From IMG/VR virus record IMGVR_UViG_3300031673_008942, positions 49,637 to 113,636 of that record: DNA of 64,000 nt; one strand, given 5' to 3'. This document shows positions 9,935 to 23,448 of this stretch, piece by piece; position 1 is the stretch's first letter; each line of letters opens with the position of its first letter. The position numbers and the translations under genes were made by a program. The notes under the pieces are model-generated. The model was not told the origin of the DNA. It did not search any database and worked only from the letters and a program-made list of their open reading frames with translations. This DNA is from a virus.

Positions 9935-11680
9935 ATGGCATATTTTAAGATTGACAAGGGTTTGATTAAGTTTCATGACGTATACAAGGTGAGGCGGAAG
10001 ATTCAGGAGGTCGGCGGGGTTTTCCGTGCTGATGAGAGTGTGTGGGTTCTCGCTTTTACCATAGAGAATTTAGAATTTGTTATTGATGAGATTCCTAATC
10101 TTTTTGTGCCAGACGGAATTGATGAGCTTGTTATTAATCAGCAGAAGAAAGAGAGGAAGCTTACTGAACTTAAGAAGGCTGCCAAGGATAATATCGAGAT
10201 AAGACTGAAGATTCCTGGATTAAAGGCTATTTTGTATCCCTATCAGAAAATGGGAGTGATGTATAGCCTTGTTAGTGGAAGTGGTATGCTGATAGCAGAT
10301 GAGATGGGTCTTGGGAAGTCTTTTCAAGCATTAGCATTGGCATTGATGTTAAAACATCAGGGAAGGGCAAAGAGCGCATTGTTGGTAACGCCTGCTTCTT
10401 TGAAGTTTAACTGGCCTTTAGAGATTGAGAAATTTACTGATGAAAAATACGTAGTGATTGATGGAACCCCGGAGCAACGTATTGCTCAGTGGTTGCGGAA
10501 AGATGTGTTTTTTTATGTGGTGAACTATGAATTACTTTTGGAGGATTTATTTGGTGGCAAGGAACCAAAGGAAAAGGATGATGAAACTTCAGAGCAAAGA
10601 GTGCGAAGAGAGAAGAGGCAATCCAAAATAGCAAAAAGGGAACGGATACTTTCTCCTTTGAGGGATAAAGTGTGGGATTTCATATCGGTAGATGAGATAC
10701 ATAATATAAAGAATCCTGGAAGTAAGCGAAGTAAGAATATTAAGAGTTTGAAGGGTGATTTTAGGATTGGCTTATCGGGCACTCCTTTGGATGGGAAGTT
10801 GGAAGAGTTGCATAGTGTTATGGAGTTTATTATGCCGGGATTATTGGGAAGCCGAACTCGTTTTCTTCAGAAGCATGCTGTTACTAATTGGAGTGGGGAT
10901 GTTGTTTCCTATAAGAATATAAATGAGGTTAGTGAGAAGATTGCTCCTTTCTTTATTAGGAGGCTGAAGAAGAATGTTTTGAAAGACCTGCCTGACAAGA
11001 TATATGAGAATAGGATTATTGAGTTAAGCCCGGCTGAGAGAAAAATATATAATGATATTAAGAAGAAGAGACATGAGATAACGGAAGATGCGGAGGCCAT
11101 GGTTCTGACGATTAGGTGTAAGCAATTTCTGGACAGTCCTGAGTTAATTGAAGAGGAGGGTGAGTCTTCCAAATTAGAGTCGTTTAAGGAGGTAATTCAG
11201 GAAGTTGTTATAGAGAATATGCACAAGGTTATCATTTTCAGCCAGTATAAAAAGATGACTGATATTCTTGTAAGAGTATTAGAAGAAATGGGTTTGAAGT
11301 GTCTTTACATTCATGGAGAAGTTCCTAAGGCTAAGAGAGCTCAGATGCAGGAGCAGTTTAATACGGATGATTCAATTGACTGTATTATAGGGACGGAAGC
11401 GATGTCCACAGGGCTTAATTTTATTGGGGGCGATATCGTTATTAATTATGATGATAATTGGGCTCCTGCCATTATGCGTCAACGTGAAGACCGTGCTCAC
11501 AGAATTGGTCAAAAGAATACAGTAACTGTAATAAATTTCATTTGTCGTGATACAATAGAAGAGCGTATTCGAGAGCGTCTCTATGAGAAGGAAATTGTCT
11601 CCAATGAAGTATTGGGGGATGGTTTAGATGAATATGTTTTAAAACGTTTAGGACCAAAAGATATATTAGGACTTTTATAA
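9935..11680 (+). CDS. SNF2-family helicase/ATPase
   Basis: 'LYPYQ', 'LIADEMGLGKS', 'DEIH', 'LSGTP', 'RRLKKNVLKDLP', 'QREDRAHRIGQ'. Confidence 0.95.
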   Translation: MAYFKIDKGLIKFHDVYKVRRKIQEVGGVFRADESVWVLAFTIENLEFVIDEIPNLFVPDGIDELVINQQKKERKLTELKKAAKDNIEIRLKIPGLKAILYPYQKMGVMYSLVSGSGMLIADEMGLGKSFQALALALMLKHQGRAKSALLVTPASLKFNWPLEIEKFTDEKYVVIDGTPEQRIAQWLRKDVFFYVVNYELLLEDLFGGKEPKEKDDETSEQRVRREKRQSKIAKRERILSPLRDKVWDFISVDEIHNIKNPGSKRSKNIKSLKGDFRIGLSGTPLDGKLEELHSVMEFIMPGLLGSRTRFLQKHAVTNWSGDVVSYKNINEVSEKIAPFFIRRLKKNVLKDLPDKIYENRIIELSPAERKIYNDIKKKRHEITEDAEAMVLTIRCKQFLDSPELIEEEGESSKLESFKEVIQEVVIENMHKVIIFSQYKKMTDILVRVLEEMGLKCLYIHGEVPKAKRAQMQEQFNTDDSIDCIIGTEAMSTGLNFIGGDIVINYDDNWAPAIMRQREDRAHRIGQKNTVTVINFICRDTIEERIRERLYEKEIVSNEVLGDGLDEYVLKRLGPKDILGLL

Positions 11681-13216
11681 ATGGCAAGTTTTGATGATAC
11701 TAGGGAATTGGAAAGAACATTTCTTAAGCTTCTTATGAAGACTAAGATGATGGCACGGTTAAATATATTTAAGGTGAGGAGGGAATGGTTCACTGGAAAA
11801 GAAAGATTGTTCATATGGGAATGTATTAAGAGCACTTTTGATAATTCTAAGAGTATTCTTACAAGACGTTTATTTTTATATGAGTTGCAGGGACGCATAG
11901 ATGATGAAAAGGAGAGGGATTATTATGCTTCGGAATGGGAGATGGTTGAAGATACTGAGGTTTTTGAGGATGCCGATGGGCTGATTAGTCGGCTTAAAGA
12001 GGCTGTTATTGGTCGTAGAATAATGGATGCGGCAGAGGAGATGGCTATGAAGCTTGAGTCTGCTAATATTCAAGAAGCTTTAGAATCTCTTAAAAGGTCG
12101 GCAATCTCTATTAACAATGATGGTGGAGATGACCATGAGATTGTTGAGATTACTGATTACCAACATCGTTTGAAGGTTTTACGGGATAAGCAGGAGCATC
12201 CGGAGAAGTATTTAGGGATTAAAACTGGCTTTCCTTCATTTGATAGGTGTACTGGTGGTTTGTTTAAAGAGGAGCTTTTATTGGTAGCAGGTGTAACAGG
12301 CTTGGGGAAGTCTACCTTTGTGAAGCAATTACAATATGGAATTATTACCAACAATATAGATAAGAATGTTTTACATATTGCGAATGAGGAGAGTCAAGAC
12401 CAAGTAGAAATGAAGTTTGACTCTCTCCTGACGGAAGTCCCCTATTTGGATTATAAGCTTGCTCGGACTTCTGAGGATGATATTGAGAAGTGGATTGAGA
12501 CGATGGAGAAGACTCTTAAAAATCCGGGAGTGGGTCGTATTTTCGTAAAAGAGGTTCCTCAGTTTACTGACGTCACCCTGGTTGAGCAGGCATATAACGA
12601 GCTCAAAGAAAAGGGGATTGATATTCATGTTATCATTATTGACCATTTACCCCATATTAAACCTATAGGTCAAGTCTGGGGTGAGAACGATGAAAGGGCA
12701 AAAGCGGCGGCAGATTGCAAGCAGTTGGCGAAGAATTGTAAATGTTCTGTGGTCATCCCTACCCAAGCTGCCACAGAAGTAGAGGAAAAACAATCAAAGG
12801 GGAAGAGGGCGGGAAGATTAGATGTGTATGGTTCAAAGGGGCAGATACATGTGGCAAATTCTTTCTTGATGATTACAAAGAGAGGGACTTTTGAAGAGGT
12901 TGGTAAACCAGATTATTTATGGGATGTTCATTGGCTTTGCGATATGAAGAAGAATAGAGATGGCCCTGGGTTCTACTTTGAAGCTCGGCATTATGTTGAG
13001 ATTGGAAAGGTTGAAGAGATATTAGGTGATAATGCTTTTGATAATTGGGATGATGAGCCAGAACCCTCTCCTTCTCCAGAACCCGAAATTTATAATGAAG
13101 ATGATGGGGAAGCTGAGGATGTTTCTGATAGTGGGGTAAAAATTGATGAGAATGTTCCAGAAAAATCCGAGAAAAAAAGTAGTTTTTTGGATAGATTGCC
13201 CAAGATTGGCGTATAA
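11681..13216 (+). CDS. dnaB: replicative DnaB-like helicase
   Basis: 'GIKTGFPSFD', Walker A 'GVTGLGKS', 'IIIDH', 'PTQ', 'KKNRDG'; acidic tail. Confidence 0.9.
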   Translation: MASFDDTRELERTFLKLLMKTKMMARLNIFKVRREWFTGKERLFIWECIKSTFDNSKSILTRRLFLYELQGRIDDEKERDYYASEWEMVEDTEVFEDADGLISRLKEAVIGRRIMDAAEEMAMKLESANIQEALESLKRSAISINNDGGDDHEIVEITDYQHRLKVLRDKQEHPEKYLGIKTGFPSFDRCTGGLFKEELLLVAGVTGLGKSTFVKQLQYGIITNNIDKNVLHIANEESQDQVEMKFDSLLTEVPYLDYKLARTSEDDIEKWIETMEKTLKNPGVGRIFVKEVPQFTDVTLVEQAYNELKEKGIDIHVIIIDHLPHIKPIGQVWGENDERAKAAADCKQLAKNCKCSVVIPTQAATEVEEKQSKGKRAGRLDVYGSKGQIHVANSFLMITKRGTFEEVGKPDYLWDVHWLCDMKKNRDGPGFYFEARHYVEIGKVEEILGDNAFDNWDDEPEPSPSPEPEIYNEDDGEAEDVSDSGVKIDENVPEKSEKKSSFLDRLPKIGV

Positions 13217-13250
13217 TAAAATGATAGTTTAAATGATAAAAATAGGATGA

Positions 13251-14204
13251 TTGAAGATGTCAGAACATGTATTGATAACACACCAAAATATTGGTGACTC
13301 TTTTAGTGGGGTTTATTATATTGAGCAATTACACATCAGAGAAACTACTGGTGGAAAAGATTTTACCGAGCTCATATTGAGAGATAAGAGTGGTTCCCGA
13401 AGTGTTAAGTACTGGGGCGTTGTGGGTGGATTGGCCAAGGGTGACTGGGGATTTGTAAGTGCCAGAGTAGAAGAATATATGGGTGGCCCAAGTATTATTG
13501 CTAAGAATTTGGAGAAGGAAGATGCTCCTTCGGATTTGTCAGCGTATGTCCCTGTGTCAGAAGACCATGATAAGAATCTTGAAAAGTTTTCTAAGCTAAT
13601 TGAGGAACTTCGTAAATTGTGTTCGGAGGTTGGTGATAATACGCCACTTATAATTGTGGAGTCTATATTTACTGATAAGTTCAGGGCTCAGTTTTGTGAT
13701 GCCCCTGGCGGTTATGGGTTCTATGGTTGCAAGGGAGGAGCCTTGGCTCGGACGGTTCGAGTTGGCATGAGTGTGAGATTTTTAAGTGGAAATTATAAGT
13801 TGTCTCCTTTGGATAAGGCTATCGCTGTAGCCTCTGCTCTGCTTTATTCTATTGGAGCAGCAGAGGTTTTCCATATGAAAGATTGTATGCCTGATGAAAA
13901 GACTTATGGTGCTCTTTTAGGGGTAGAGGGATATACTAACTCCCGTCTATTATCCGTCTTTAGAAAATTGGTAAAAGGAGGCGAGGCAGATAAAGACAGT
14001 GGCATGCGTGTTTTACATGCTGTTGCATCGGCTCGTGAGACTGCGGTTAAGGCAATGACTAAAGAAGGAATTATCTTGTCAATGGCAAATCGCATGGATG
14101 AAGAGGTTTCAAATGCCTTGAATTTTATTGATGATGATATTAACGAGGAAGAGGACTTTACCGCTTTCGACCCAAAGAGTAAGCGTCGATACCTCAAGGT
14201 ATGA
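13251..14204 (+). CDS. YhaM/Cbf1-like OB-fold + HD-fold protein with degenerate active site
   Basis: OB N-terminus 'LILRDKSG...YWG'; HD-family positions read 'GGALART' and 'ALLYSIG' instead of GGLxxHT / ALLHDIGK. Confidence 0.7.
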   Translation: MKMSEHVLITHQNIGDSFSGVYYIEQLHIRETTGGKDFTELILRDKSGSRSVKYWGVVGGLAKGDWGFVSARVEEYMGGPSIIAKNLEKEDAPSDLSAYVPVSEDHDKNLEKFSKLIEELRKLCSEVGDNTPLIIVESIFTDKFRAQFCDAPGGYGFYGCKGGALARTVRVGMSVRFLSGNYKLSPLDKAIAVASALLYSIGAAEVFHMKDCMPDEKTYGALLGVEGYTNSRLLSVFRKLVKGGEADKDSGMRVLHAVASARETAVKAMTKEGIILSMANRMDEEVSNALNFIDDDINEEEDFTAFDPKSKRRYLKV

Positions 14205-15307
14205 GTCTTAGCGAACAAGAAATTGCTCGTTACAAAGACATAGAGTGGTTGATGCCTCATGTGGACGTGGAGGATGTTCTAGACCGCTTGGGTGTTGAGC
14301 ATGGACATGAGCGAAATAGCGAAATAATGGCCTTTTGCCCTGACCATGAACATCATACAGGAAATTCTCCAAGTCATCCTAAATGGGGTTTAAATACTGA
14401 TACGGGAAAGACCTATTGCTTTACTGAAGACCGAGGTAGTAATTTGGTTTTCACGATTTGTAGAGTATTGGATTGTGGGGCTGATGCTGCGGTAAGTTTT
14501 ATGACTGGTAGCGATGTGACGAATCTAAGGGCTTCTGGTTTGAAGGGTAGAATATCCAAGCTTAGGCGTAAAGATGTAAAAAAGAGAAATGCTGAAGAGC
14601 CAGGCGAGGTATGGGGGTTGGATAAGATTCAAAAGGATTTGAACAATCGTCCAGTTTCAGACCATTTATATGATTTTTTCATGCAACCTCCAGGGAAGCC
14701 TCCAAGCAATATTGTACAGAATACCGTGGATAGGTTTGGGGTTTTTGAGAGGAGGTGGGGATATTATACTAATCGAGCTATCATTCCTTTTTATATGCAT
14801 GGAAAAATTATCGGTTTTTGTGCTATTGATATGCTTGGGGAGAGGGAGTGGGTGCAGATGCATCCATTGAAGGACTCATCAGATTATAGGAAGGTATTGT
14901 ATCCGCAAAATTTCAAATCAAACGAGTGTCTGTTTAATTATGATAATTGTGAAAAAGGGTCGAAGATTATATTGACTGAGGGGGCACGAGAGGTGATGAA
15001 GTTGAGCCAGGAGGGCTTCCCTAATAGCTTGGCAGTGTTGGGTTCTGGTCTGGGAAGCAGTGACCCATTGGAGGTTGGGGACTCACAGTTGAGACTTCTG
15101 GCAAAATTGGACCCAGAGGAAATCATTTTAATGTTTGACGGTGACAAGGCAGGATATAAAGCTACTGAAAAACTGGAGAAAAATCTATCGAGATTGTTTC
15201 CAGTTCGTCCGTGTAAATTGTTAAACGATACAGACCCGAAGATGCTTTGTCGTGATGAAATAAAAAAGATAATAAAAAGTTTTAAATTATCTTGTAATGA
15301 TTTTTGA
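14201..15307 (+). CDS. dnaG: DNA primase (Zn-binding domain + TOPRIM)
   Basis: 'FCPDH...YCF' Zn domain; TOPRIM 'LTEGARE', 'MFDGDKAG', 'DP'. Confidence 0.9.
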   Translation: MSLSEQEIARYKDIEWLMPHVDVEDVLDRLGVEHGHERNSEIMAFCPDHEHHTGNSPSHPKWGLNTDTGKTYCFTEDRGSNLVFTICRVLDCGADAAVSFMTGSDVTNLRASGLKGRISKLRRKDVKKRNAEEPGEVWGLDKIQKDLNNRPVSDHLYDFFMQPPGKPPSNIVQNTVDRFGVFERRWGYYTNRAIIPFYMHGKIIGFCAIDMLGEREWVQMHPLKDSSDYRKVLYPQNFKSNECLFNYDNCEKGSKIILTEGAREVMKLSQEGFPNSLAVLGSGLGSSDPLEVGDSQLRLLAKLDPEEIILMFDGDKAGYKATEKLEKNLSRLFPVRPCKLLNDTDPKMLCRDEIKKIIKSFKLSCNDF

Positions 15308-15460
15308 ACATGTAATATTGAATGATTATGCTTCCGGTGATGGTGTTACCTAAAGTATTTTGAGGCGTGCCCGTTTTGGGCTTTTTGTGGCAATTCCGTA
15401 TAGGAATTATTTATTAAAACTTGCCGATTTTCGGCTGTAGGCAGAGGAAGGAGAGGTGTA

Positions 15461-16282
15461 ATGGCTTCAGTTCTATTGGATGCGTATTGTGTCCAAAATA
15501 CCCGTGTTATAAAGCGTTTTCCAGTGGTTGATGCTTTAAGTTTCATTCGATTAAAAAGTTATTTTACGAGTGAGTCCCCCGTCAAACGAGTTGCAGTATC
15601 TTCTGTAGAAGAAGTTCCAGATATCCTGCATAGATTCCCCATAACCCAAGAGCTTGCGGCTGATATTATCGCTAATGGTTTACCGTGTGGTATGGAGTCA
15701 TCGAGCTATCCCAAGGAAGAATATATTATGGATGGCTTGTATCATAGTATATCAGCAATGGTATACAAATTATGTAGAAAATATACGGCGACTTGTACAA
15801 CTGACCTTGATGATTTGGCTCATGAGTGTTTGCATCGCATTTTTGCAAAGATTGGTCAGTTTAATAAAGATAAGGGGAAATTCACCACTTGGAGTTATCG
15901 GGTCTGCTTAAGTGTTTTGGCTCGTCGTTATCATAATGATAAGAAACGAAGTGACCGTTTTATTTCTGATGGGGAGGATGAGGAAAAGAATGAAAGGATG
16001 AGGAGTGGTATTGTCAGAGAGAAGGGAGTATCAGTTCTTAATGGTGAGATGAGGGAAGTTGTACGTAAGCTTTTGCGTGAATACCCTGAGAAGGCTGAGT
16101 TCGTTGAGGAATTATTTGGAAATATCAATAGTAATGACCATTTATTTCCTGTTTCGGTGTGCATTAGTGATTCTGCACGGAAGCTAGGTATAGAATATGT
16201 GGAAGCCTATACGTTTTTTAAGCGTGTCGTTCGTCCAATTTTTAAAGAATATTTTGAATACAGAGAGGTAACAAATGTCTGA
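15461..16282 (+). CDS. phage sigma70-family sigma factor
   Basis: Region-2-like 'DLDDLAHECL..IF.KI.QF...KGKFTTWSYRV'; C-terminal HTH-like 'ISDSARKLGI'; strong SD upstream. Confidence 0.75.
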   Translation: MASVLLDAYCVQNTRVIKRFPVVDALSFIRLKSYFTSESPVKRVAVSSVEEVPDILHRFPITQELAADIIANGLPCGMESSSYPKEEYIMDGLYHSISAMVYKLCRKYTATCTTDLDDLAHECLHRIFAKIGQFNKDKGKFTTWSYRVCLSVLARRYHNDKKRSDRFISDGEDEEKNERMRSGIVREKGVSVLNGEMREVVRKLLREYPEKAEFVEELFGNINSNDHLFPVSVCISDSARKLGIEYVEAYTFFKRVVRPIFKEYFEYREVTNV

Positions 16283-16706
16283 TATGAAGATGCATAGCCC
16301 AACCCAGGCTATAAAAATGGGTAGTTGTTTTGGTCACTACGATGAAAATGATAAAATTTGTGGTAAGTGTGTGGTAAACGGGGTGAGTTTCCCTTCTCCA
16401 TATTCATGTAATGTTGCTACTGCGAAGAGGCAAAAGGCAGAAAGTGCGGGTGTTGAAGACCTTGAGGACATTGATGCATGGGATTATTTGATGAAGTCCC
16501 TTCAGGGTAGGTTGGATTTATCAATTACTAAAAATGATAAAGCTATCAGTTATGATTTTGCAGCTGATGATGGAACTCACAAAATTCGTGTTATTTCCAT
16601 GATAGGTTCTGAAAGGGTAATGATAATGGCATCTGGCTTCAAGGAGAAGTATGAGAAGTTAGAGTCATTGGAATTTGTGGAGAATATTTTAAAGAAATTG
16701 CTATGA
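16275..16706 (+). CDS. hypothetical protein with N-terminal Cys/Zn motif
   Basis: 'CFGHYDENDKICGKC'; coupled to both neighbours. Confidence 0.7.
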   Translation: MSDMKMHSPTQAIKMGSCFGHYDENDKICGKCVVNGVSFPSPYSCNVATAKRQKAESAGVEDLEDIDAWDYLMKSLQGRLDLSITKNDKAISYDFAADDGTHKIRVISMIGSERVMIMASGFKEKYEKLESLEFVENILKKLL

Positions 16707-17617
16707 GGACTGTTAATTATCCTTATTTCCAACCTTCATTTGCAAACTTTAATAAAGCCCAGATAGCCGTTGTTCCTTATTTTGATGAGGATGTTAATTT
16801 GGTTGTGTCTTTTCCCACTGCGGTGGGCAAGACTGTTATCGCAGAATGTTGTTTTGGATACCATTTATCTACAGAGAAGGATAGTCGAGTAGTATATGTC
16901 TCTCCTCTTCGAAGGCTTACTTCTGAAAAATATGAGAATTGGAGTTCTGAGTCACAGTTTTGTGATTATGGAGTAATGCAGAGTACTGGAGAAGACCCTG
17001 CTCCCATGAAAGACTTTGAAAATTCCAGAATATCTTTACTTACGAGTGAGTCTTTTGATTCAAAAACCAGAGTAAAAACATATCGTGAATGGTTAAAGGG
17101 TGTTGCATGTGTGGTTATTGATGAGGCTCATTTGATAGGACATGAGAAGAGGGGAGGTGCTGTTGAGAATGCTTTAATGCGTTTTACTTCCATAAATACT
17201 ACTGCACGATTAATTTTATTATCAGCTACTATGAGTAACTCAATGGAGATTGCTAAATGGATAAAATCTCTTAATGGCAAAGAAACAAAGCATATTAAGA
17301 GTGACTGGCGACCGGTGAAGATAAACCGGGAGTTTTATGAAATACCGGATGGTAACGAGTCAAAGATAAGAGCCGTTGTCGCTCATCTTAAAAAGAGCAA
17401 TTTTACAGGAAAGACGATTGTTTTTGTTCATTCTAAGGCAGTTGGAAAAGAGATTGTGAATAGGTTAAGTAAAGAAAGAATAAAATCGGCTTTTCATAAT
17501 TCTGGTTTAAATAAGAGAAAGCGAGCCGAAATTGAAAAAGAATTTGATGATGCGTATTCAGAATTGAATGTACTGGTTAGTACGAGCACTCTTGGAGCAG
17601 GAGTTAATATAGGATGA
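16703..17617 (+). CDS. Hel308/Ski2-like SF2 helicase, N-terminal half (motifs Q to V)
   Basis: 'FNKAQ', 'PTAVGKT', 'YVSPLRRL', 'DEAH', 'LSATMSN', 'DWRPV', 'IVFVHSK', 'AFHNSGL', 'STSTLGAGVN' then stop. Confidence 0.9.
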   Translation: MRTVNYPYFQPSFANFNKAQIAVVPYFDEDVNLVVSFPTAVGKTVIAECCFGYHLSTEKDSRVVYVSPLRRLTSEKYENWSSESQFCDYGVMQSTGEDPAPMKDFENSRISLLTSESFDSKTRVKTYREWLKGVACVVIDEAHLIGHEKRGGAVENALMRFTSINTTARLILLSATMSNSMEIAKWIKSLNGKETKHIKSDWRPVKINREFYEIPDGNESKIRAVVAHLKKSNFTGKTIVFVHSKAVGKEIVNRLSKERIKSAFHNSGLNKRKRAEIEKEFDDAYSELNVLVSTSTLGAGVNIG

Positions 17618-18192
17618 ATGATTTAGACATATTAAAAAAAGAATGTTTGGGTTGTACTAAATGTGCAATTGGGGGTGTTCATTTGGATAATGGTCTTTCT
17701 AATGTTTTTTCCAATATGAATATTGATGCTGATATTATGGTAGTGGGTCAGAATCCAGGTTCTGATGAGGTTAAAGGTGCTGAACCTTTTATTGGTGATA
17801 GTGGTAAGTTTTTTGATAAAGTAATGTTGGAAGTTTGTGGCCTTTCAAGAGATGATTTTTATATTTCTAATGTAGTAAGATGCTACACTCCTGGAAATAG
17901 GAAGCCTTATCAAAATGAGATAGATTCCTGTAGGGATTTCCTTGATAAAGAGATTGAATTAGTTAAGCCCAAGTTCATTATAGGTCTTGGAAGTTTTGCT
18001 TTTAAGCAATTAACTGGAATGAGCGGTATTATGAAGCATCATGGAGAATTGGTATTCTCTATTCGATACAAAGTTAATGTTATTCCCTTGTTACATCCAA
18101 GTCCTTTGAATATTCAAAAGGGTGACTGTTTAGGAATGTTCTATGATGATTTAGAGAAGGTCAAATCATATTTGGAGAGTCTAGATGGCTGA
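17614..18192 (+). CDS. uracil-DNA glycosylase, family 4 (Fe-S type)
   Basis: 'CLGCTKC', 'VGQNPG', 'PFIGDSG', 'SNVVRCY', 'LHPS'. Confidence 0.93.
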   Translation: MNDLDILKKECLGCTKCAIGGVHLDNGLSNVFSNMNIDADIMVVGQNPGSDEVKGAEPFIGDSGKFFDKVMLEVCGLSRDDFYISNVVRCYTPGNRKPYQNEIDSCRDFLDKEIELVKPKFIIGLGSFAFKQLTGMSGIMKHHGELVFSIRYKVNVIPLLHPSPLNIQKGDCLGMFYDDLEKVKSYLESLDG

Positions 18193-19261
18193 CCGAGTTA
18201 TTATTACTGGTTCTCGGAGGGGAAACGAGGAGGTAACATTGATAGAGCTTGGACAGATGATAGGTCGAGCAGGTAGGGACCAATTTGGTGGTGATGCATA
18301 TGTAGATATTTTCCTTGAAAGGTGTGATTTCCAAAGAGTTGTTTCTCAGATAGATGATAAAAATAGCTTTCTGGTAAATTCTTCTCTGACTGATGAATCT
18401 TTGCTGTTTCATATTTTACCGGATATTAATTCTGGAAAAGTGAGGGATGTAAAAACTGCTAAGGAATGGTTTAAAAGAAGTTTTTTCTATTACCAGAAGG
18501 GTGAAAGGTTGGATATTGAAGATTCCTTGGATGCTTTGGAGAAGATGGGAGCAATATATTTAGAGAATGGATATCTTACAGCTACCGAGGTGGGAAATTT
18601 GTCGGCTCAGTATTACTACCATCCTGATGATATTATAAGTTGGAAGAATAATTTTACGGAATTGTTTGAGAGTTCCTTAGAGGATAATGACTTAGCCATT
18701 TCTTGGGCATTGGGAAATGTTTTATTCAGCTCTACTTATGGTAATTATGGTCAGGACTCGGATGTGGTAGAGGACTGTAAGGGAAGGATGCCGCCTGGCT
18801 TGTATATGCATTCAGGATGTGCTTCTACCATTACTTGTTGGTGGGGGGCTTTGGGTGGTGCTTCGATGGGGAAGATGCGGTCTTCTATGTTGGCATTGAG
18901 GGAGGATTATGGCCGATTGGGGAAAGTGCTTAGGGCATTAAATAAGAAGGTTGGGAAATGGGGTATGGAAGACTTTTTTGATGACTTAGATTATAGGATT
19001 CGTCGCTCTATTCCTATAAGTTTGTTCCAGTTATGTAAAGATATTGGTCTCAGTAAGGGGAGGGCATCTTTTTTATATAATAGAGGCATCCGCTCAGTAG
19101 AGGATTTGGTATATAATATGGATGGATTAGAAGGCGAAATTGATGATGAATTTTATGAAAAATTGAAGAGAGCCAGTGAATTATCAGGAAAGGTTGATAA
19201 AGGATTGCGTGAGAGCGATGCGGGATGGAAGAGTCTCGGACTTGCACGTAACAAGGATTAG
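18185..19261 (+). CDS. Hel308/Ski2-like helicase, C-terminal half (motif VI, winged helix, ratchet, HhH)
   Basis: 'RVII', 'QMIGRAGR', 'WFKRSFFY', 'ATEVGNLSAQYY', 'GLSKGRASFLYNRGIRSVEDL'; own GGAG SD. Confidence 0.88.
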   Translation: MADRVIITGSRRGNEEVTLIELGQMIGRAGRDQFGGDAYVDIFLERCDFQRVVSQIDDKNSFLVNSSLTDESLLFHILPDINSGKVRDVKTAKEWFKRSFFYYQKGERLDIEDSLDALEKMGAIYLENGYLTATEVGNLSAQYYYHPDDIISWKNNFTELFESSLEDNDLAISWALGNVLFSSTYGNYGQDSDVVEDCKGRMPPGLYMHSGCASTITCWWGALGGASMGKMRSSMLALREDYGRLGKVLRALNKKVGKWGMEDFFDDLDYRIRRSIPISLFQLCKDIGLSKGRASFLYNRGIRSVEDLVYNMDGLEGEIDDEFYEKLKRASELSGKVDKGLRESDAGWKSLGLARNKD

Positions 19262-19625
19262 CAAATGCGATAAGCCAATGAATGTTGAGTCGGTTGTTCC
19301 ATTCTTGCAGGATGGAGACCCATATATTCGCCTTTGTGCTGCGAGAGTGGTGGCGGCTAAGGGAGATATGGAAGGCCTGATGAATATGGCAATGATTGAG
19401 GAGAATCGAAATACTTTATTAGAGGTGCTGAAGCTAATAACTAATAGTGATGATGCTGTGACTCATTTGGTTAAGTTTTTGAAGTCTGAAGATACTCACT
19501 TACGTGAGGGGGCGATATCTATGTACCGTCGAATCGGAAGAGAAGACATGTTATTGGCTTTGGTCTTTAGCCATGATGAAGAATTAGCGAATAGGATAAA
19601 GAGTTATATTAATGAACGAGATTGA
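19176..19625 (+). CDS. HEAT-repeat protein
   Basis: 'LQDGDPYIRLCAARVV', 'LKSEDTHLREGAI' repeats. Confidence 0.7.
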   Translation: MNYQERLIKDCVRAMRDGRVSDLHVTRISKCDKPMNVESVVPFLQDGDPYIRLCAARVVAAKGDMEGLMNMAMIEENRNTLLEVLKLITNSDDAVTHLVKFLKSEDTHLREGAISMYRRIGREDMLLALVFSHDEELANRIKSYINERD

Positions 19626-20274
19626 TAAGATAGAAATACCTGAAGATAAGGTGGAGAGATTTTGGGTTTTGGTGCTTATGTTTGCTCAAGAGATGGGTAT
19701 TGAAGACCACAAAGATGTTTATCATAATGTTGAGCTTTTGGGAAAGAGTGTGGAAAGACACATTGTTGAAAGGAATCTTCCTATTTCTCCTCAGAAGAAG
19801 GTGAGTCGTTCCAGGGCGACGTTTATTGCTATATTTAAGAAGAGGTATTTACAGCTTACAGATTGTGAGTATACCCGAATCATAACGGCCGCCGAAGGCA
19901 AACTTATAAATCAAATAAATAAAAGCCTCCGAGAGAGAGATTTTGATTGTAATGATTATTTAAGGTGGCTTTTTGAGGATTTTTTACCCGATAATAAGAG
20001 ACTGTGTCCTCCATCTATTAAGCAGATATGTGCCAGATTTTATGTTGACAAATTTTTCTTTGAATATAAAGACGAAGCGAAAGAGCGGAAGACGACCAAG
20101 TTGAAACAATCAGAATCTGAGGATTTGGCTAATAGGTGTAGAGCCTTGGTTCGTGGTCCTGCACAGAAGATTAAGGATGAGATTCGTAAGGTAGTCTCTG
20201 ATTATAAAGATGGAAAAATATTTTTAGAGGATTTGCGTAAAAAAGTTGAAACTTGGGAAGGAGAATATAAATGA
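19612..20274 (+). CDS. hypothetical protein (replication module)
   Basis: 220-aa ORF overlapping both neighbours. Confidence 0.7.
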   Translation: MNEIDKIEIPEDKVERFWVLVLMFAQEMGIEDHKDVYHNVELLGKSVERHIVERNLPISPQKKVSRSRATFIAIFKKRYLQLTDCEYTRIITAAEGKLINQINKSLRERDFDCNDYLRWLFEDFLPDNKRLCPPSIKQICARFYVDKFFFEYKDEAKERKTTKLKQSESEDLANRCRALVRGPAQKIKDEIRKVVSDYKDGKIFLEDLRKKVETWEGEYK

Positions 20275-22215: not shown

Positions 22216-23448
22216 ATGGCAAAAAAAGAATTAAAAAAATTAACTCGTGAAGAACGCATTCAGAAGATTTGTGAAACTGTCAATAAGGGTCAGTTTGGGG
22301 GTGAGAATAAAGATGCGGTAACTTACTTGGGTTCCAGGGAAGTTAAGAAGATTGGTCGTTTTTGTACCGGGTCTCCAGATTTGGATGCTGCCCTTGGGGG
22401 CGGTCTTCCTGTGGGTAGGTTTATTGAATTATTTGGAGCAGAATCTTCAGGTAAGACCACCTTGTGTTATCACATCATGAAAGAATTTCAAAAAGCTTAT
22501 CCTGAGGATGAGATTGCTTTGATTGATAGTGAATATGCCTTTGATGAGGTGTATGCTGAGCAGATAGGGTTAAATACAAAATATCTTATTGTTAATCAGC
22601 CCGAACATGGTGAGCAGGCGATGAATGTAATGGGGCAGTTGATAACTTTAGGGACTCGGCTGATTATTGTTGATTCTGTAGCAGGTTTAACAACTAAGGC
22701 CGAGATGGAAGGGGAGTATGGGGCTTCTCATGTCGCTCAATTGGCTCGATTGATGAGCAATTCGTTAAAGAAATTGGCGCAAGCGGCTGGAAGAACCGAG
22801 ACCACAATCATTTTTACCAATCAGATGCGTGACAAGATTGGGGTGACTTATGGAGACAAGAGTACGACTCCAGGGGGTAATGCTTTAAAGTTCTATGCTA
22901 GTGTTCGAATTAATCTTAGAAGGATGGATTCCGAGACTGAGACTGTTAATGGGCAAAAGGTTCGTATTAGTAATAGAGTTCGGGCTGAGGTTAAAAAGAA
23001 CAAGACTGCTCCTCCATTTCGTAGTGCCGATTTTCATATTACTTTTGGTATTGGGATTGATGAGGTTGGTGCCTTTTTTACATCAGCTATTACAAAGGGA
23101 ATTATTGACAAGAAAGGTGCTTGGTTTAGCTACGATGGAGAGAATCTTGGACAAGGTCAGGTTGCTTCAATTGAGGCTGTTAGGAATAACGAGATTCTGT
23201 GGGAGTCAATAAAAAATGCGGTCTTGTCTTGCACTGACGAGGAAGCGGAAACGGAAACGGAAACGGAAACGGAAACGGAAGAGCCTGAATCTCCTGAGGA
23301 AAAGCCAAAGGCTCCTATTAAGAAACCATCTATTTCTAAGTCTAAGGAAGGAACCAAGGCCAGCGATTCTGTTGTTGAGAAAGTAGCAGTAGAGGATGAT
23401 GACTTTGATGACCTTCTAGATGATGATGTCGAGGTTGATGATGTCTAA
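22216..23448 (+). CDS. recA: RecA recombinase with long acidic tail
   Basis: 'GAESSGKTT', 'IVDSVA', 'NQMRDKIGV.YG', 'GGNALKFYASVR', 'KVKKNK'-like 'VKKNKTAPPF'. Confidence 0.97.
   Translation: MAKKELKKLTREERIQKICETVNKGQFGGENKDAVTYLGSREVKKIGRFCTGSPDLDAALGGGLPVGRFIELFGAESSGKTTLCYHIMKEFQKAYPEDEIALIDSEYAFDEVYAEQIGLNTKYLIVNQPEHGEQAMNVMGQLITLGTRLIIVDSVAGLTTKAEMEGEYGASHVAQLARLMSNSLKKLAQAAGRTETTIIFTNQMRDKIGVTYGDKSTTPGGNALKFYASVRINLRRMDSETETVNGQKVRISNRVRAEVKKNKTAPPFRSADFHITFGIGIDEVGAFFTSAITKGIIDKKGAWFSYDGENLGQGQVASIEAVRNNEILWESIKNAVLSCTDEEAETETETETETEEPESPEEKPKAPIKKPSISKSKEGTKASDSVVEKVAVEDDDFDDLLDDDVEVDDV
23246..23280 (+). repeat. perfect hexamer tandem (CGGAAA)~6, encoding an ET repeat
   Basis: Read directly. 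Confidence 0.95.

What the first reader, a model, noticed from the sequence alone, without database searches (positions are those of the whole stretch)
16703..19261. Hel308/Ski2-like helicase split inside RecA2 with a uracil-DNA glycosylase between the halves
Seen: gene 1 carries motifs Q to V and stops at 'STSTLGAGVNIG*'. Gene 3 starts 'MADRVIITG...QMIGRAGR' and continues with winged-helix, ratchet and HhH. Joined, they reproduce the canonical 'TLAAGVNLPARRVII' with no residues lost. A complete family-4 UDG lies between them and overlaps both (ATGA at 17614-17; 8-nt overlap at 18185-92). The C-half has its own GGAG SD, and both halves keep intact motifs. Established: Hel308/Ski2 helicases are mainly archaeal/eukaryotic single polypeptides; large bacterial Lhr helicases have been linked to UDG activity. 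Inference: a naturally split helicase that reassembles in trans, co-translated with UDG as a repair or fork-restart unit.
Basis: partly seen in the sequence, partly recalled or inferred. Interest (0 to 1): 0.8.

Follow-up and report, generated by a model that had tools for sequence, protein, structure and literature searches.

The report
Two-piece phage helicase with cargo slot
A large soil phage encodes its Hel308-like repair helicase as two separate genes, cut at one fixed point inside the motor domain, and the gap usually (not always) holds a uracil-DNA glycosylase gene; the layout is old, widespread and under selection, not a broken gene.

Summary
ORFs 16703-17617, 17614-18192 and 18185-19261 are the N-half of a Hel308-like SF2 helicase (motifs Q to V), a family-4 UDG, and the C-half (motif VI, winged helix, ratchet, HhH). 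The overlaps and the SD site are as described.

The split is not a recent disruption. Among 116 distinct related loci, 63 are split at exactly this residue and 51 are intact. All split forms can be placed in one clade. Both halves keep their catalytic motifs, and dN/dS is 0.04-0.13.

About a third of the best 150 cluster representatives in a 1.8-billion-protein library are stand-alone C-halves that start at this same residue.

UDG fills the gap in 48 of 56 classifiable loci. Eight split loci lack it, and five of those sit among UDG-bearing relatives, which points to repeated loss. One UDG-less pair still shows purifying selection on both halves.

In relatives the gap also holds GIY-YIG and Vsr-like nuclease genes, DNA methyltransferases and small ORFs. 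Inteins occupy the same five-residue loop in intact homologues.

Best reading: an obligate two-chain helicase whose break point became a cargo slot. Assembly of the halves is inferred, not shown.

The parts
16703..17617 (+). Helicase N-half (304 aa): RecA1 plus the first two thirds of RecA2, with motifs Q, I (GKT), Ia, Ib, II (DEAH), III (SAT), IV, IVa and V (STSTLGAGVN). It stops 2 residues after motif V.
   Evidence: Hits: DEAD E 3e-24; Helicase_C profile positions 2-81 of 110; NCBIfam Hel308-type models E 1e-33 to 1e-42, all below their equivalog cut-offs. The motif residues are retained across the split clade.
17614..18192 (+). Family-4 uracil-DNA glycosylase gene (192 aa) in the gap between the helicase halves. 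Its ATG overlaps the N-half stop (ATGA), and its last 8 nt overlap the C-half start.
   Evidence: PF03167 E 2.6e-32. TIGR00758 UDG_fam4 scores 130 bits against a cut-off of 125.3. Best solved relatives are 4zbx, 1l9g/1vk2 and 1ui0. C11, C14, C17, C90, C106, the GQNPG motif, and S163 and P164 of the HPSP motif are invariant; H161 and P162 are nearly so. dN/dS is 0.07 for L004 versus L007.
18185..19261 (+). Helicase C-half (358 aa): the last third of RecA2 (strand RVIIT, motif VI QMIGRAGR), then winged-helix, ratchet and helix-hairpin-helix domains.
   Evidence: The profile matches Hel308 chain 9b15 at residues 340-489 and 584-667 (E 1.3e-28). The AF2 model has pLDDT 92. Foldseek top hits are Hel308 (9b15, 2p6r, 2va8) and Hjm, followed by the Pol theta helicase domain and Brr2.
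18174..18177 (+). GGAG Shine-Dalgarno-like site, 7 nt upstream of the C-half ATG and inside the end of the UDG gene.
   Evidence: Read directly from the sequence. Most other split loci examined also carry SD-like purine runs before the C-half start.
17597..17605 (+). GGAGCAGGAG: the codons for the motif V residues G-A-G, which also form SD-like sites 8-13 nt upstream of the UDG ATG.
   Evidence: Read directly from the sequence. That these sites work as an SD is an inference.

Best explanation
This is an ancient, fixed gene-in-pieces form of a phage Hel308-like SF2 helicase. The coding sequence was cut once, exactly between the motif V loop (G-x-N-x-P/G) and the next beta-strand of RecA2 (A-x-R-V-I-I).

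The N-chain carries the ATP-binding and DNA-contacting motifs Q to V. The C-chain carries motif VI (the arginine finger) plus the winged-helix, ratchet and HhH domains. Neither chain alone can therefore form a complete ATPase site. The two chains must reassemble non-covalently, completing the RecA2 sheet, to give a working two-subunit helicase. This assembly step is inferred, not shown.

The break point has since behaved as a permissive cargo slot inside the replication/repair operon. A family-4 UDG gene has occupied it in most descendants for a long time. In this window the UDG is sandwiched by overlapping stop/start codons, so N-half, UDG and C-half are probably made from one mRNA with translational coupling (inferred).

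UDG is a frequent passenger, not an obligatory partner. It has been lost from the slot several times. Homing-endonuclease-like genes, DNA methyltransferases and small ORFs have entered the same slot in relatives.
For: (1) Anatomy and junction.

(2) Intact single-chain homologues exist in other large phages, for example LR756511.1 (675 aa, 31-33% identity), with the junction contiguous.

(3) The identical split point (N ends ...AGVN[ILMV](G)*, C starts M[AS]DxV[IV]) is seen in every split locus examined in detail. By stop-codon position it holds in 63 of 116 distinct related loci from viral and metagenome contigs.

(4) About 50 of the best 150 representatives (50% identity clusters) in the 1.84-billion-protein library are stand-alone C-halves starting at that residue.

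(5) Phylogeny: 61 split or split-like rows form one branch (SH-aLRT 97) and the 50 intact rows form another (99). A tree with all split forms held together is not rejected and scores 78 lnL units better than the free quick search (p-AU 0.96).

(6) Purifying selection: dN/dS for L004 versus L007 is N 0.05, UDG 0.07, C 0.09. All catalytic motif residues are kept in 92-100% of split-clade sequences.

(7) The break lies in a loop. In the AF2 model of an intact homologue, the cut (P315|A316) ends a 5-residue coil before strand 318-322, in one of the lower-confidence stretches of RecA2.

(8) UDG is dispensable in the slot. There are 8 distinct UDG-less split loci. L190 is sister to UDG-bearing L084 (support 100), and L197 and L151 sit inside a UDG-bearing clade. 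The UDG-less pair L164/L168 has dN/dS of 0.044 (N) and 0.057 (C).

(9) Slot cargo in relatives: GIY-YIG (L212), DUF559/Vsr-like nuclease (L160, and by BLASTP clustering its L159 homologue), C5 and N6/N4 methyltransferases (L184, L214), a SLOG protein (L084), and a 12-member small-ORF family.

(10) No intron or intein could rejoin the halves. Rfam gives nothing. Pfam finds no intein domain in either half. The relative frame of N and C differs between loci, and the gap ranges from -4 nt to more than 2 kb.
Against: Physical association of the two halves and ATPase or unwinding activity have not been tested here; they rest on motif logic and conservation.

The single complex-prediction job went to the UDG question, so N-C docking was not scored.

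The order of events is unresolved. The split lineages placed at the base (L187 and L198, both without UDG, and L183, content unknown) sit in an unresolved polytomy on long branches. UDG may therefore have caused the split and later been lost there, or it may have entered a pre-existing split.

UDG-less genomes could carry UDG elsewhere; their records were not held, so this could not be checked.

UDG retention in 86% of loci, together with tight overlaps, could still reflect a functional coupling that these data cannot see.
Confidence: 0.82

Rival explanations
1. Helicase-UDG machine. UDG is a functional third subunit or obligate partner of the split helicase. The three proteins act as one uracil-repair or fork-restart complex, and the gene order exists to ensure stoichiometric co-assembly.
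For: UDG sits in the slot in 48 of 56 classifiable distinct split loci. It clusters as one group on the UDG tree, with a topology broadly like the helicase tree. It is under purifying selection. In this window it overlaps both halves. E. coli Lhr joins an SF2 helicase to UDG activity (PMC10953399).
Against: Eight split lineages lack UDG in the slot. At least 4-5 of these absences sit inside UDG-bearing clades, and the halves remain under strong purifying selection in one of them. In many loci other ORFs separate UDG from one half, so tight coupling is not conserved. UDG and both halves carry no extra tails or docking segments compared with stand-alone relatives. Related jumbo phages with intact helicases keep a UDG more than 100 kb away.
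Confidence: 0.13
2. Recent disruption or pseudogene. A UDG cassette landed in a helicase gene and inactivated it, and the halves are decaying remnants.
For: Intact homologues exist in related phages.
Against: The split form is deep and diverse (aa identity 28-59% between members). All motifs are kept. dN/dS is 0.04-0.13 in both halves. No member examined has internal stops, except one probable frameshift in L151. Start codons, and in most loci examined an SD-like site, are conserved for the C-half.
Confidence: 0.01
3. The halves are rejoined into one chain by RNA splicing, protein trans-splicing (split intein) or ribosomal bypass or frameshifting across the insert.
For: In this window N and C are in the same frame and the insert is exactly 570 nt. 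Inteins are common in this helicase family, including in the same loop. Phage 'fractured genes' with split inteins are known (PMC2677866).
Against: Frame identity is not conserved; L003 and L012 differ. The insert ranges from none to more than 2 kb with varied genes. There is no Rfam intron hit. There is no intein sequence: the N-half ends 0-4 residues after motif V, the C-half begins with helicase sequence, and Pfam finds no intein domain. UDG is in another frame with its own start.
Confidence: 0.02
4. Homing-endonuclease origin. The split was created by a free-standing homing endonuclease, or by intein-associated cleavage, that targets the motif V coding sequence. UDG arrived as a hitch-hiker or a later replacement. 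The slot stays a target for such elements. This is compatible with the best explanation and adds an origin story.
For: LAGLIDADG inteins sit 4 residues upstream in the same loop in intact homologues: L028, by insert position also L045, and 14 of 82 long representatives. GIY-YIG and Vsr-like (DUF559) nuclease genes occupy the slot in L212 and in L160/L159. The Vsr-like family was proposed as homing endonucleases in fractured phage genes (PMC2677866). There is precedent in the Aeh1 nrdA gene split by mobE (PMC3045599).
Against: No nuclease gene is present in this window's slot or in most split loci. Nuclease-bearing loci are few and not basal on the tree. Cleavage specificity is untested.
Confidence: 0.3

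Closest known systems
Archaeal Hel308/Hjm helicases (PDB 2p6r, 2va8, 2zj8, 9b15) and the Pol theta helicase-like domain
   Same: SF2 Ski2-like motifs, a DExH box, and RecA1-RecA2-winged helix-ratchet-HhH domain order. These are the best sequence and fold matches.
   Different: Those are single polypeptides; here the chain is cut inside RecA2. Scores are far below the NCBIfam Hel308 equivalog cut-offs (about 115 + 35 bits against 1200). The protein is encoded by a large phage, and its nearest family is PHROG 6819.
Phage Aeh1 NrdA-a/NrdA-b, split by the mobE homing endonuclease gene (Crona et al. 2010, PMC3045599)
   Same: An essential DNA-metabolism enzyme of a phage is fragmented into two genes by an inserted gene. 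Function is restored by non-covalent assembly, not by splicing.
   Different: There the insert is a homing endonuclease, and new terminal tails created by the insertion are essential. Here the insert is a UDG, with no nuclease in this window. There are no tails (0-4 extra residues), and the split form is old and widespread rather than a single case.
'Fractured genes' of phage metagenomes (Dassa et al. 2009, PMC2677866)
   Same: DNA synthesis or repair genes are broken in two with a free-standing gene in between. Vsr-like nuclease genes appear in some slots, mostly in phages.
   Different: Fractured genes are flanked by split-intein halves that re-ligate the protein. Here no intein sequence is present at the break. 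The helicase type reported there was gp41, not Hel308-like, and no glycosylase is mentioned in that paper.
E. coli Lhr helicase with uracil-DNA glycosylase activity (Buckley et al. 2023, PMC10953399)
   Same: An SF2 DNA repair helicase is paired with UDG activity.
   Different: [quoted passage not shown] Here UDG is a separate family-4 gene, and it is missing from the slot in several related lineages.

Membership tests
Hel308 / Ski2-like SF2 DNA helicase | Complete set of SF2 motifs (Q, I, Ia, II DExH, III, IV, V, VI) | tested here: met
   Motifs Q to V are in the N-half and motif VI (QMIGRAGR) is in the C-half. They are retained in 92-100% of split-clade sequences.
Hel308 / Ski2-like SF2 DNA helicase | C-terminal winged-helix, ratchet and helix-hairpin-helix domains | tested here: met
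   The profile hits Hel308 9b15 at residues 340-489 and 584-667. The AF2 model has pLDDT 92, and Foldseek top hits are Hel308/Hjm (E 2e-11 to 5e-9, TM-score normalised to the query 0.52-0.58).
Hel308 / Ski2-like SF2 DNA helicase | Single polypeptide carrying both RecA domains | tested here: not met
   A stop codon follows motif V, and the C-half is a separate ORF with its own ATG and SD.
Hel308 / Ski2-like SF2 DNA helicase | Score above the NCBIfam Hel308 equivalog cut-off | tested here: not met
   NF040935 scores 114.7 bits (N) and 34.8 bits (C) against a cut-off of 1200. The intact phage homologue L001 scores 208 bits. This is a distinct phage branch, not an orthologue.
Hel308 / Ski2-like SF2 DNA helicase | ATP-dependent 3'-5' DNA unwinding | not testable with these tools
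   Needs biochemistry.
Family-4 uracil-DNA glycosylase | Score above the TIGR00758 UDG_fam4 cut-off | tested here: met
   130 bits against a cut-off of 125.3. The best solved relatives are family-4 UDGs: 4zbx, 1vk2 and 1ui0.
Family-4 uracil-DNA glycosylase | Conserved cysteines for the 4Fe-4S cluster | tested here: met
   C11, C14, C17, C90 and C106 are invariant in 45 sequences. Assigning them to the cluster rests on homology to family-4 structures and is an inference.
Family-4 uracil-DNA glycosylase | Motif A GE(A/G)PG and motif B HPS(P/A) | tested here: inconclusive
   Motif B (HPSP) is present. Motif A reads GQNPG, invariant or nearly so in this subfamily, where the solved family-4 enzymes have GEAPG or GEGPG. 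The effect on activity is unknown.
Phage gene-in-pieces made by insertion of a free-standing gene (nrdA/mobE type) | Conserved enzyme gene interrupted between codons, with intact homologues elsewhere and both pieces conserved | tested here: met
Phage gene-in-pieces made by insertion of a free-standing gene (nrdA/mobE type) | The intervening gene is a homing endonuclease | tested here: not met
   The window's insert is a UDG only. Nuclease genes (GIY-YIG, DUF559/Vsr-like) occur in the slot only in a few relatives.
Fractured gene with split intein | Intein N- and C-fragments flanking the break | tested here: not met
   Pfam finds no intein domain in either half. The N-half ends 0-4 residues after motif V, and the C-half starts with helicase sequence.
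Group I/II intron-interrupted gene | Intron RNA structure across the insert | tested here: not met
   No Rfam match at E <= 1 in 16000-20000. The insert content and length vary between relatives.

The most novel reading that the evidence does not exclude
The split is more than a tolerated scar. Cutting RecA2 between motifs V and VI makes the helicase ATPase depend on assembly of two chains. The gene placed between them, usually UDG, may act as a physical or kinetic third component. Examples would be docking on the re-formed RecA2 domain, or timing C-half synthesis through translational coupling. The result would be a uracil-sensing helicase-glycosylase machine, analogous in logic to Lhr but built from three chains.
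Probability: 0.12. Interest if true: 0.8.

Novelty: new variant of a known kind. Interest (0 to 1): 0.6.

Why it matters
Naturally fragmented enzymes that work by non-covalent reassembly are rare and instructive. The papers found here describe single cases or small metagenomic sets, such as Aeh1 NrdA and 26 fractured-gene loci.

Here an SF2 motor is cut inside one RecA domain, so that the ATP site needs two chains. The two-chain form has persisted across a large, deep clade of big soil and sediment phages.

This gives helicase biochemists a ready-made natural split point. It gives phage biologists a clear case of a break site turning into a slot that collects repair, modification and selfish nuclease genes. 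It also gives annotators a warning that these 'truncated helicases' are halves of one enzyme.

Finally, it tempers the attractive helicase-UDG-unit idea: the pairing is frequent but not obligatory.

Tried and rejected
- **Complex prediction (N + C + UDG, UDG as partner):** no support (score 0.00, controls not run). This counts neither for nor against binding.
- **The search for related loci with the single C-half in viral contigs, and with the 5-row profile in metagenome contigs:** no confirmed relatives. Later scans with profiles A2, A3 and A8 succeeded.
- **The look-up of sequencing runs:** no RNA holder listed, so nothing can be said about expression.
- **The genome search on metagenome loci L164, L187, L190, L197 and L184:** the records are not held, so whether UDG-less lineages carry UDG elsewhere is unknown.
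- **L085 (the nearest UDG outside a split context):** its 110-kb record shows no helicase match, which is uninformative.
- **Promoter/terminator scan:** fewer promoter-like sites than in shuffles, and no convincing terminator inside the three-gene unit. This is weak support at most for one transcript.
- **Literature searches:** searches for Hel308 + phage + UDG, Hel308 + jumbo phage, and 'split helicase' + phage found no prior description in the held library.
- **In-frame read-through:** considered because N and C share a frame and the insert is 570 nt. Rejected because the frame relation is not conserved in relatives.
Full report
**Observation**

The window holds three tightly packed + strand ORFs.
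- ORF 1 is 16703-17617 (304 aa).
- ORF 2 is 17614-18192 (192 aa).
- ORF 3 is 18185-19261 (358 aa).

The N-half stop overlaps the UDG start (ATGA, 17614-17617). The UDG's last 8 nt overlap the C-half start (ATGGCTGA, 18185-18192). A GGAG lies 7 nt before that ATG.

- Pfam finds DEAD and a truncated Helicase_C (profile positions 2-81 of 110) in ORF 1, UDG (E 2.6e-32) in ORF 2, and nothing in ORF 3.
- PHROG 6819 covers ORF 1 at profile positions 21-302 and ORF 3 at 322-462.
- NCBIfam Hel308-type models hit both halves in register, and TIGR00758 (family-4 UDG) passes its cut-off for ORF 2.

A profile of the C-half hits the solved Hel308 chain 9b15 from residue 340 onwards, that is, inside RecA2. 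Its AF2 model (pLDDT 92) matches Hel308/Hjm best, then the Pol theta helicase domain and Brr2.

A contig from a run not flagged as the source (X4, 4740 nt, identical) spans both junctions.

The record is an IMG/VR virus contig of 113.6 kb, estimated 34% complete. It is therefore a fragment of a large phage. The locus sits in a replication/recombination module with SNF2, DnaB-like, primase, sigma-like and RecA genes.

**Is it a broken gene?**

No. Intact single-chain homologues exist. One is a 675-aa ORF in the 595-kb phage LR756511.1, where the two query halves abut with one codon between them. About 60 IMG/VR loci are also intact.

The split form, however, is itself a large family.
- Four stand-alone C-halves at 28-42% identity all start MA[DR]RV.
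- In a profile search of 1.84 billion cluster representatives, 68 of the best 150 are shorter than 400 aa, and about 50 begin at exactly this residue.
- Scans of viral and metagenome contigs with C-half, UDG and N-half profiles gave 154 classifiable loci and 116 distinct N sequences. Of these, 51 are intact and 63 are split at the same codon. The split set breaks down as 48 with UDG next, 8 without UDG, and 7 with unknown downstream content.

All catalytic motif residues are kept in 92-100% of split-clade sequences.

dN/dS values show purifying selection throughout.
- For the closest UDG-bearing pair (L004/L007): N 0.05, UDG 0.07, C 0.09.
- For a UDG-less pair (L164/L168): N 0.044, C 0.057.

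On an N-half tree, 61 split or split-like rows form one branch (SH-aLRT 97) and the 50 intact rows another (99). Holding all split forms together is not rejected and gives a better likelihood than the free quick search (p-AU 0.96). One ancient split with long persistence is the simplest reading.

**Where the cut lies**

Aligned to intact proteins, the junction is N-I-G|(M)A-D-R-V-I-I against N-L-P|A-R-R-V-I-I. Nothing is lost, one Met is gained, and the otherwise invariant Pro is replaced.

In the AF2 model of an intact homologue (pLDDT 88.7), the cut falls at the end of a five-residue coil after motif V and just before a RecA2 strand. This is one of the lower-confidence stretches of RecA2.

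The same coil hosts LAGLIDADG inteins four residues upstream in intact relatives. Examples are L028, by insert position L045, and 14 of 82 long representatives.

The N chain holds motifs Q to V. The C chain holds motif VI plus the WH, ratchet and HhH domains. An ATPase site therefore requires both chains. I infer non-covalent reassembly; this was not measured.

**Routes to a single chain are unlikely**

- There is no Rfam intron.
- There is no intein sequence at the break.
- The shared frame of N and C in this window is not conserved in relatives.
- The insert ranges from a 4-nt overlap to more than 2 kb.
- No long representative carries a fused UDG domain.

**The role of UDG**

UDG is the usual occupant of the slot: 48 of 56 classifiable distinct loci. 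Slot UDGs cluster together on a UDG tree, with a topology broadly like the helicase tree.

However, eight split lineages lack it. L190 is sister to UDG-bearing L084. L197 and L151 sit inside a UDG-bearing clade. L164/L168 and L196 are also inside the main split clade. L187 and L198 sit in the basal polytomy.

Many loci also have extra ORFs between UDG and one half. Cargo found in the slot:
- a GIY-YIG nuclease (L212);
- a DUF559/Vsr-like nuclease (L160, and by BLASTP clustering its L159 homologue);
- C5 and N6/N4 DNA methyltransferases (L184, L214);
- a SLOG protein (L084);
- a 12-member small-ORF family after UDG.

Neither UDG nor the halves carry extra tails compared with free-standing relatives. 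Three of five jumbo-phage records with intact helicases encode a UDG of this family more than 100 kb away.

So UDG is a long-retained passenger of the slot, not a demonstrable subunit. Whether UDG made the split or entered it later is open, because the basal split lineages are unresolved.

**Comparison with known systems**

The helicase works like, and folds like, Hel308/Hjm. It fails the equivalog cut-offs and the single-chain criterion, so it is a distinct phage branch.

The genetic arrangement is closest to two known kinds.
- Phage genes-in-pieces such as Aeh1 nrdA split by mobE (PMC3045599). The difference here is that the insert is not a nuclease and no assembly tails exist.
- The 'fractured genes' of phage metagenomes (PMC2677866). 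The difference here is that there is no split intein. The Vsr-like nuclease class described there does appear in some slots.

The Lhr helicase-UDG link (PMC10953399) is a conceptual parallel only.

Searches of the held literature found no description of a split Hel308-like phage helicase.

**Verdict**

The split-helicase inference is well supported by comparative evidence, although assembly is not shown. The helicase-UDG unit is not supported as an obligate arrangement.

I rate it a new variant of a known kind, of moderate to high interest.

Noticed in passing
L104:3447-5102: In one split-clade relative the slot UDG is a 551-aa ORF. It carries a LAGLIDADG intein (Intein_splicing plus LAGLIDADG_2) inserted near UDG residue 90-96, next to the conserved Cys and the TPGNR segment.
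   Followed up: partly
L028:3727-7047; L024:3973-7053; L196:2842-7581: Inteins are frequent in this helicase family. They occur in the motif V loop (L028, L045), in the P-loop after GK (L024, L025). Insert-sized gaps at the same P-loop position in the N-halves of L178, L184 and L196, and an insert after QMC of motif VI in the 764-aa C-half of L196, look like further inteins but were not run against Pfam.
   Followed up: partly
window 17591-17622 (table 7): Small contigs in runs X5 and X6 match only the 32 nt that encode the end of motif V and the stop/start, with unrelated sequence on both sides. This is probably a related co-occurring phage with a different sequence after the N-half stop.
   Followed up: no
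window 16275-16706 and 19176-19625: The flanking genes are syntenic across the split clade. Upstream is a ~140-aa Cys-rich protein with no Pfam hit. Downstream is a ~150-aa protein with a sub-threshold HEAT-repeat hit, ending ...RIK.YI.E. The longest downstream ORF overlaps the C-half 3' end by 86 nt, so its true start may be the ATG near 19276.
   Followed up: partly
window 17746-17760 (UDG residues 45-49): UDG motif A reads GQNPG, and this is invariant or nearly so across 45 relatives. The solved family-4 enzymes have GEAPG or GEGPG. This may mark a distinct phage-associated subfamily with altered catalytic chemistry.
   Followed up: partly
L184:5334-9000; L162:1341-2360: In some split-clade contigs the N-half is followed by a run of DNA-modification genes: a C5 methylase, a weak thymidylate-synthase-like protein and an N6/N4 methylase. 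The C-half is not found within the fetched flank (4.5 kb in L184, about 1.1 kb to the contig end in L162), so the slot may have grown into an island or the C-half may have moved.
   Followed up: no
window 9935-16282 and 22216-23448: Context genes: SNF2-family helicase, DnaB-like helicase, Toprim primase, a sigma-70 region-2-like protein and a RecA with an acidic tail. This is a replication/recombination module, all on one strand.
   Followed up: partly
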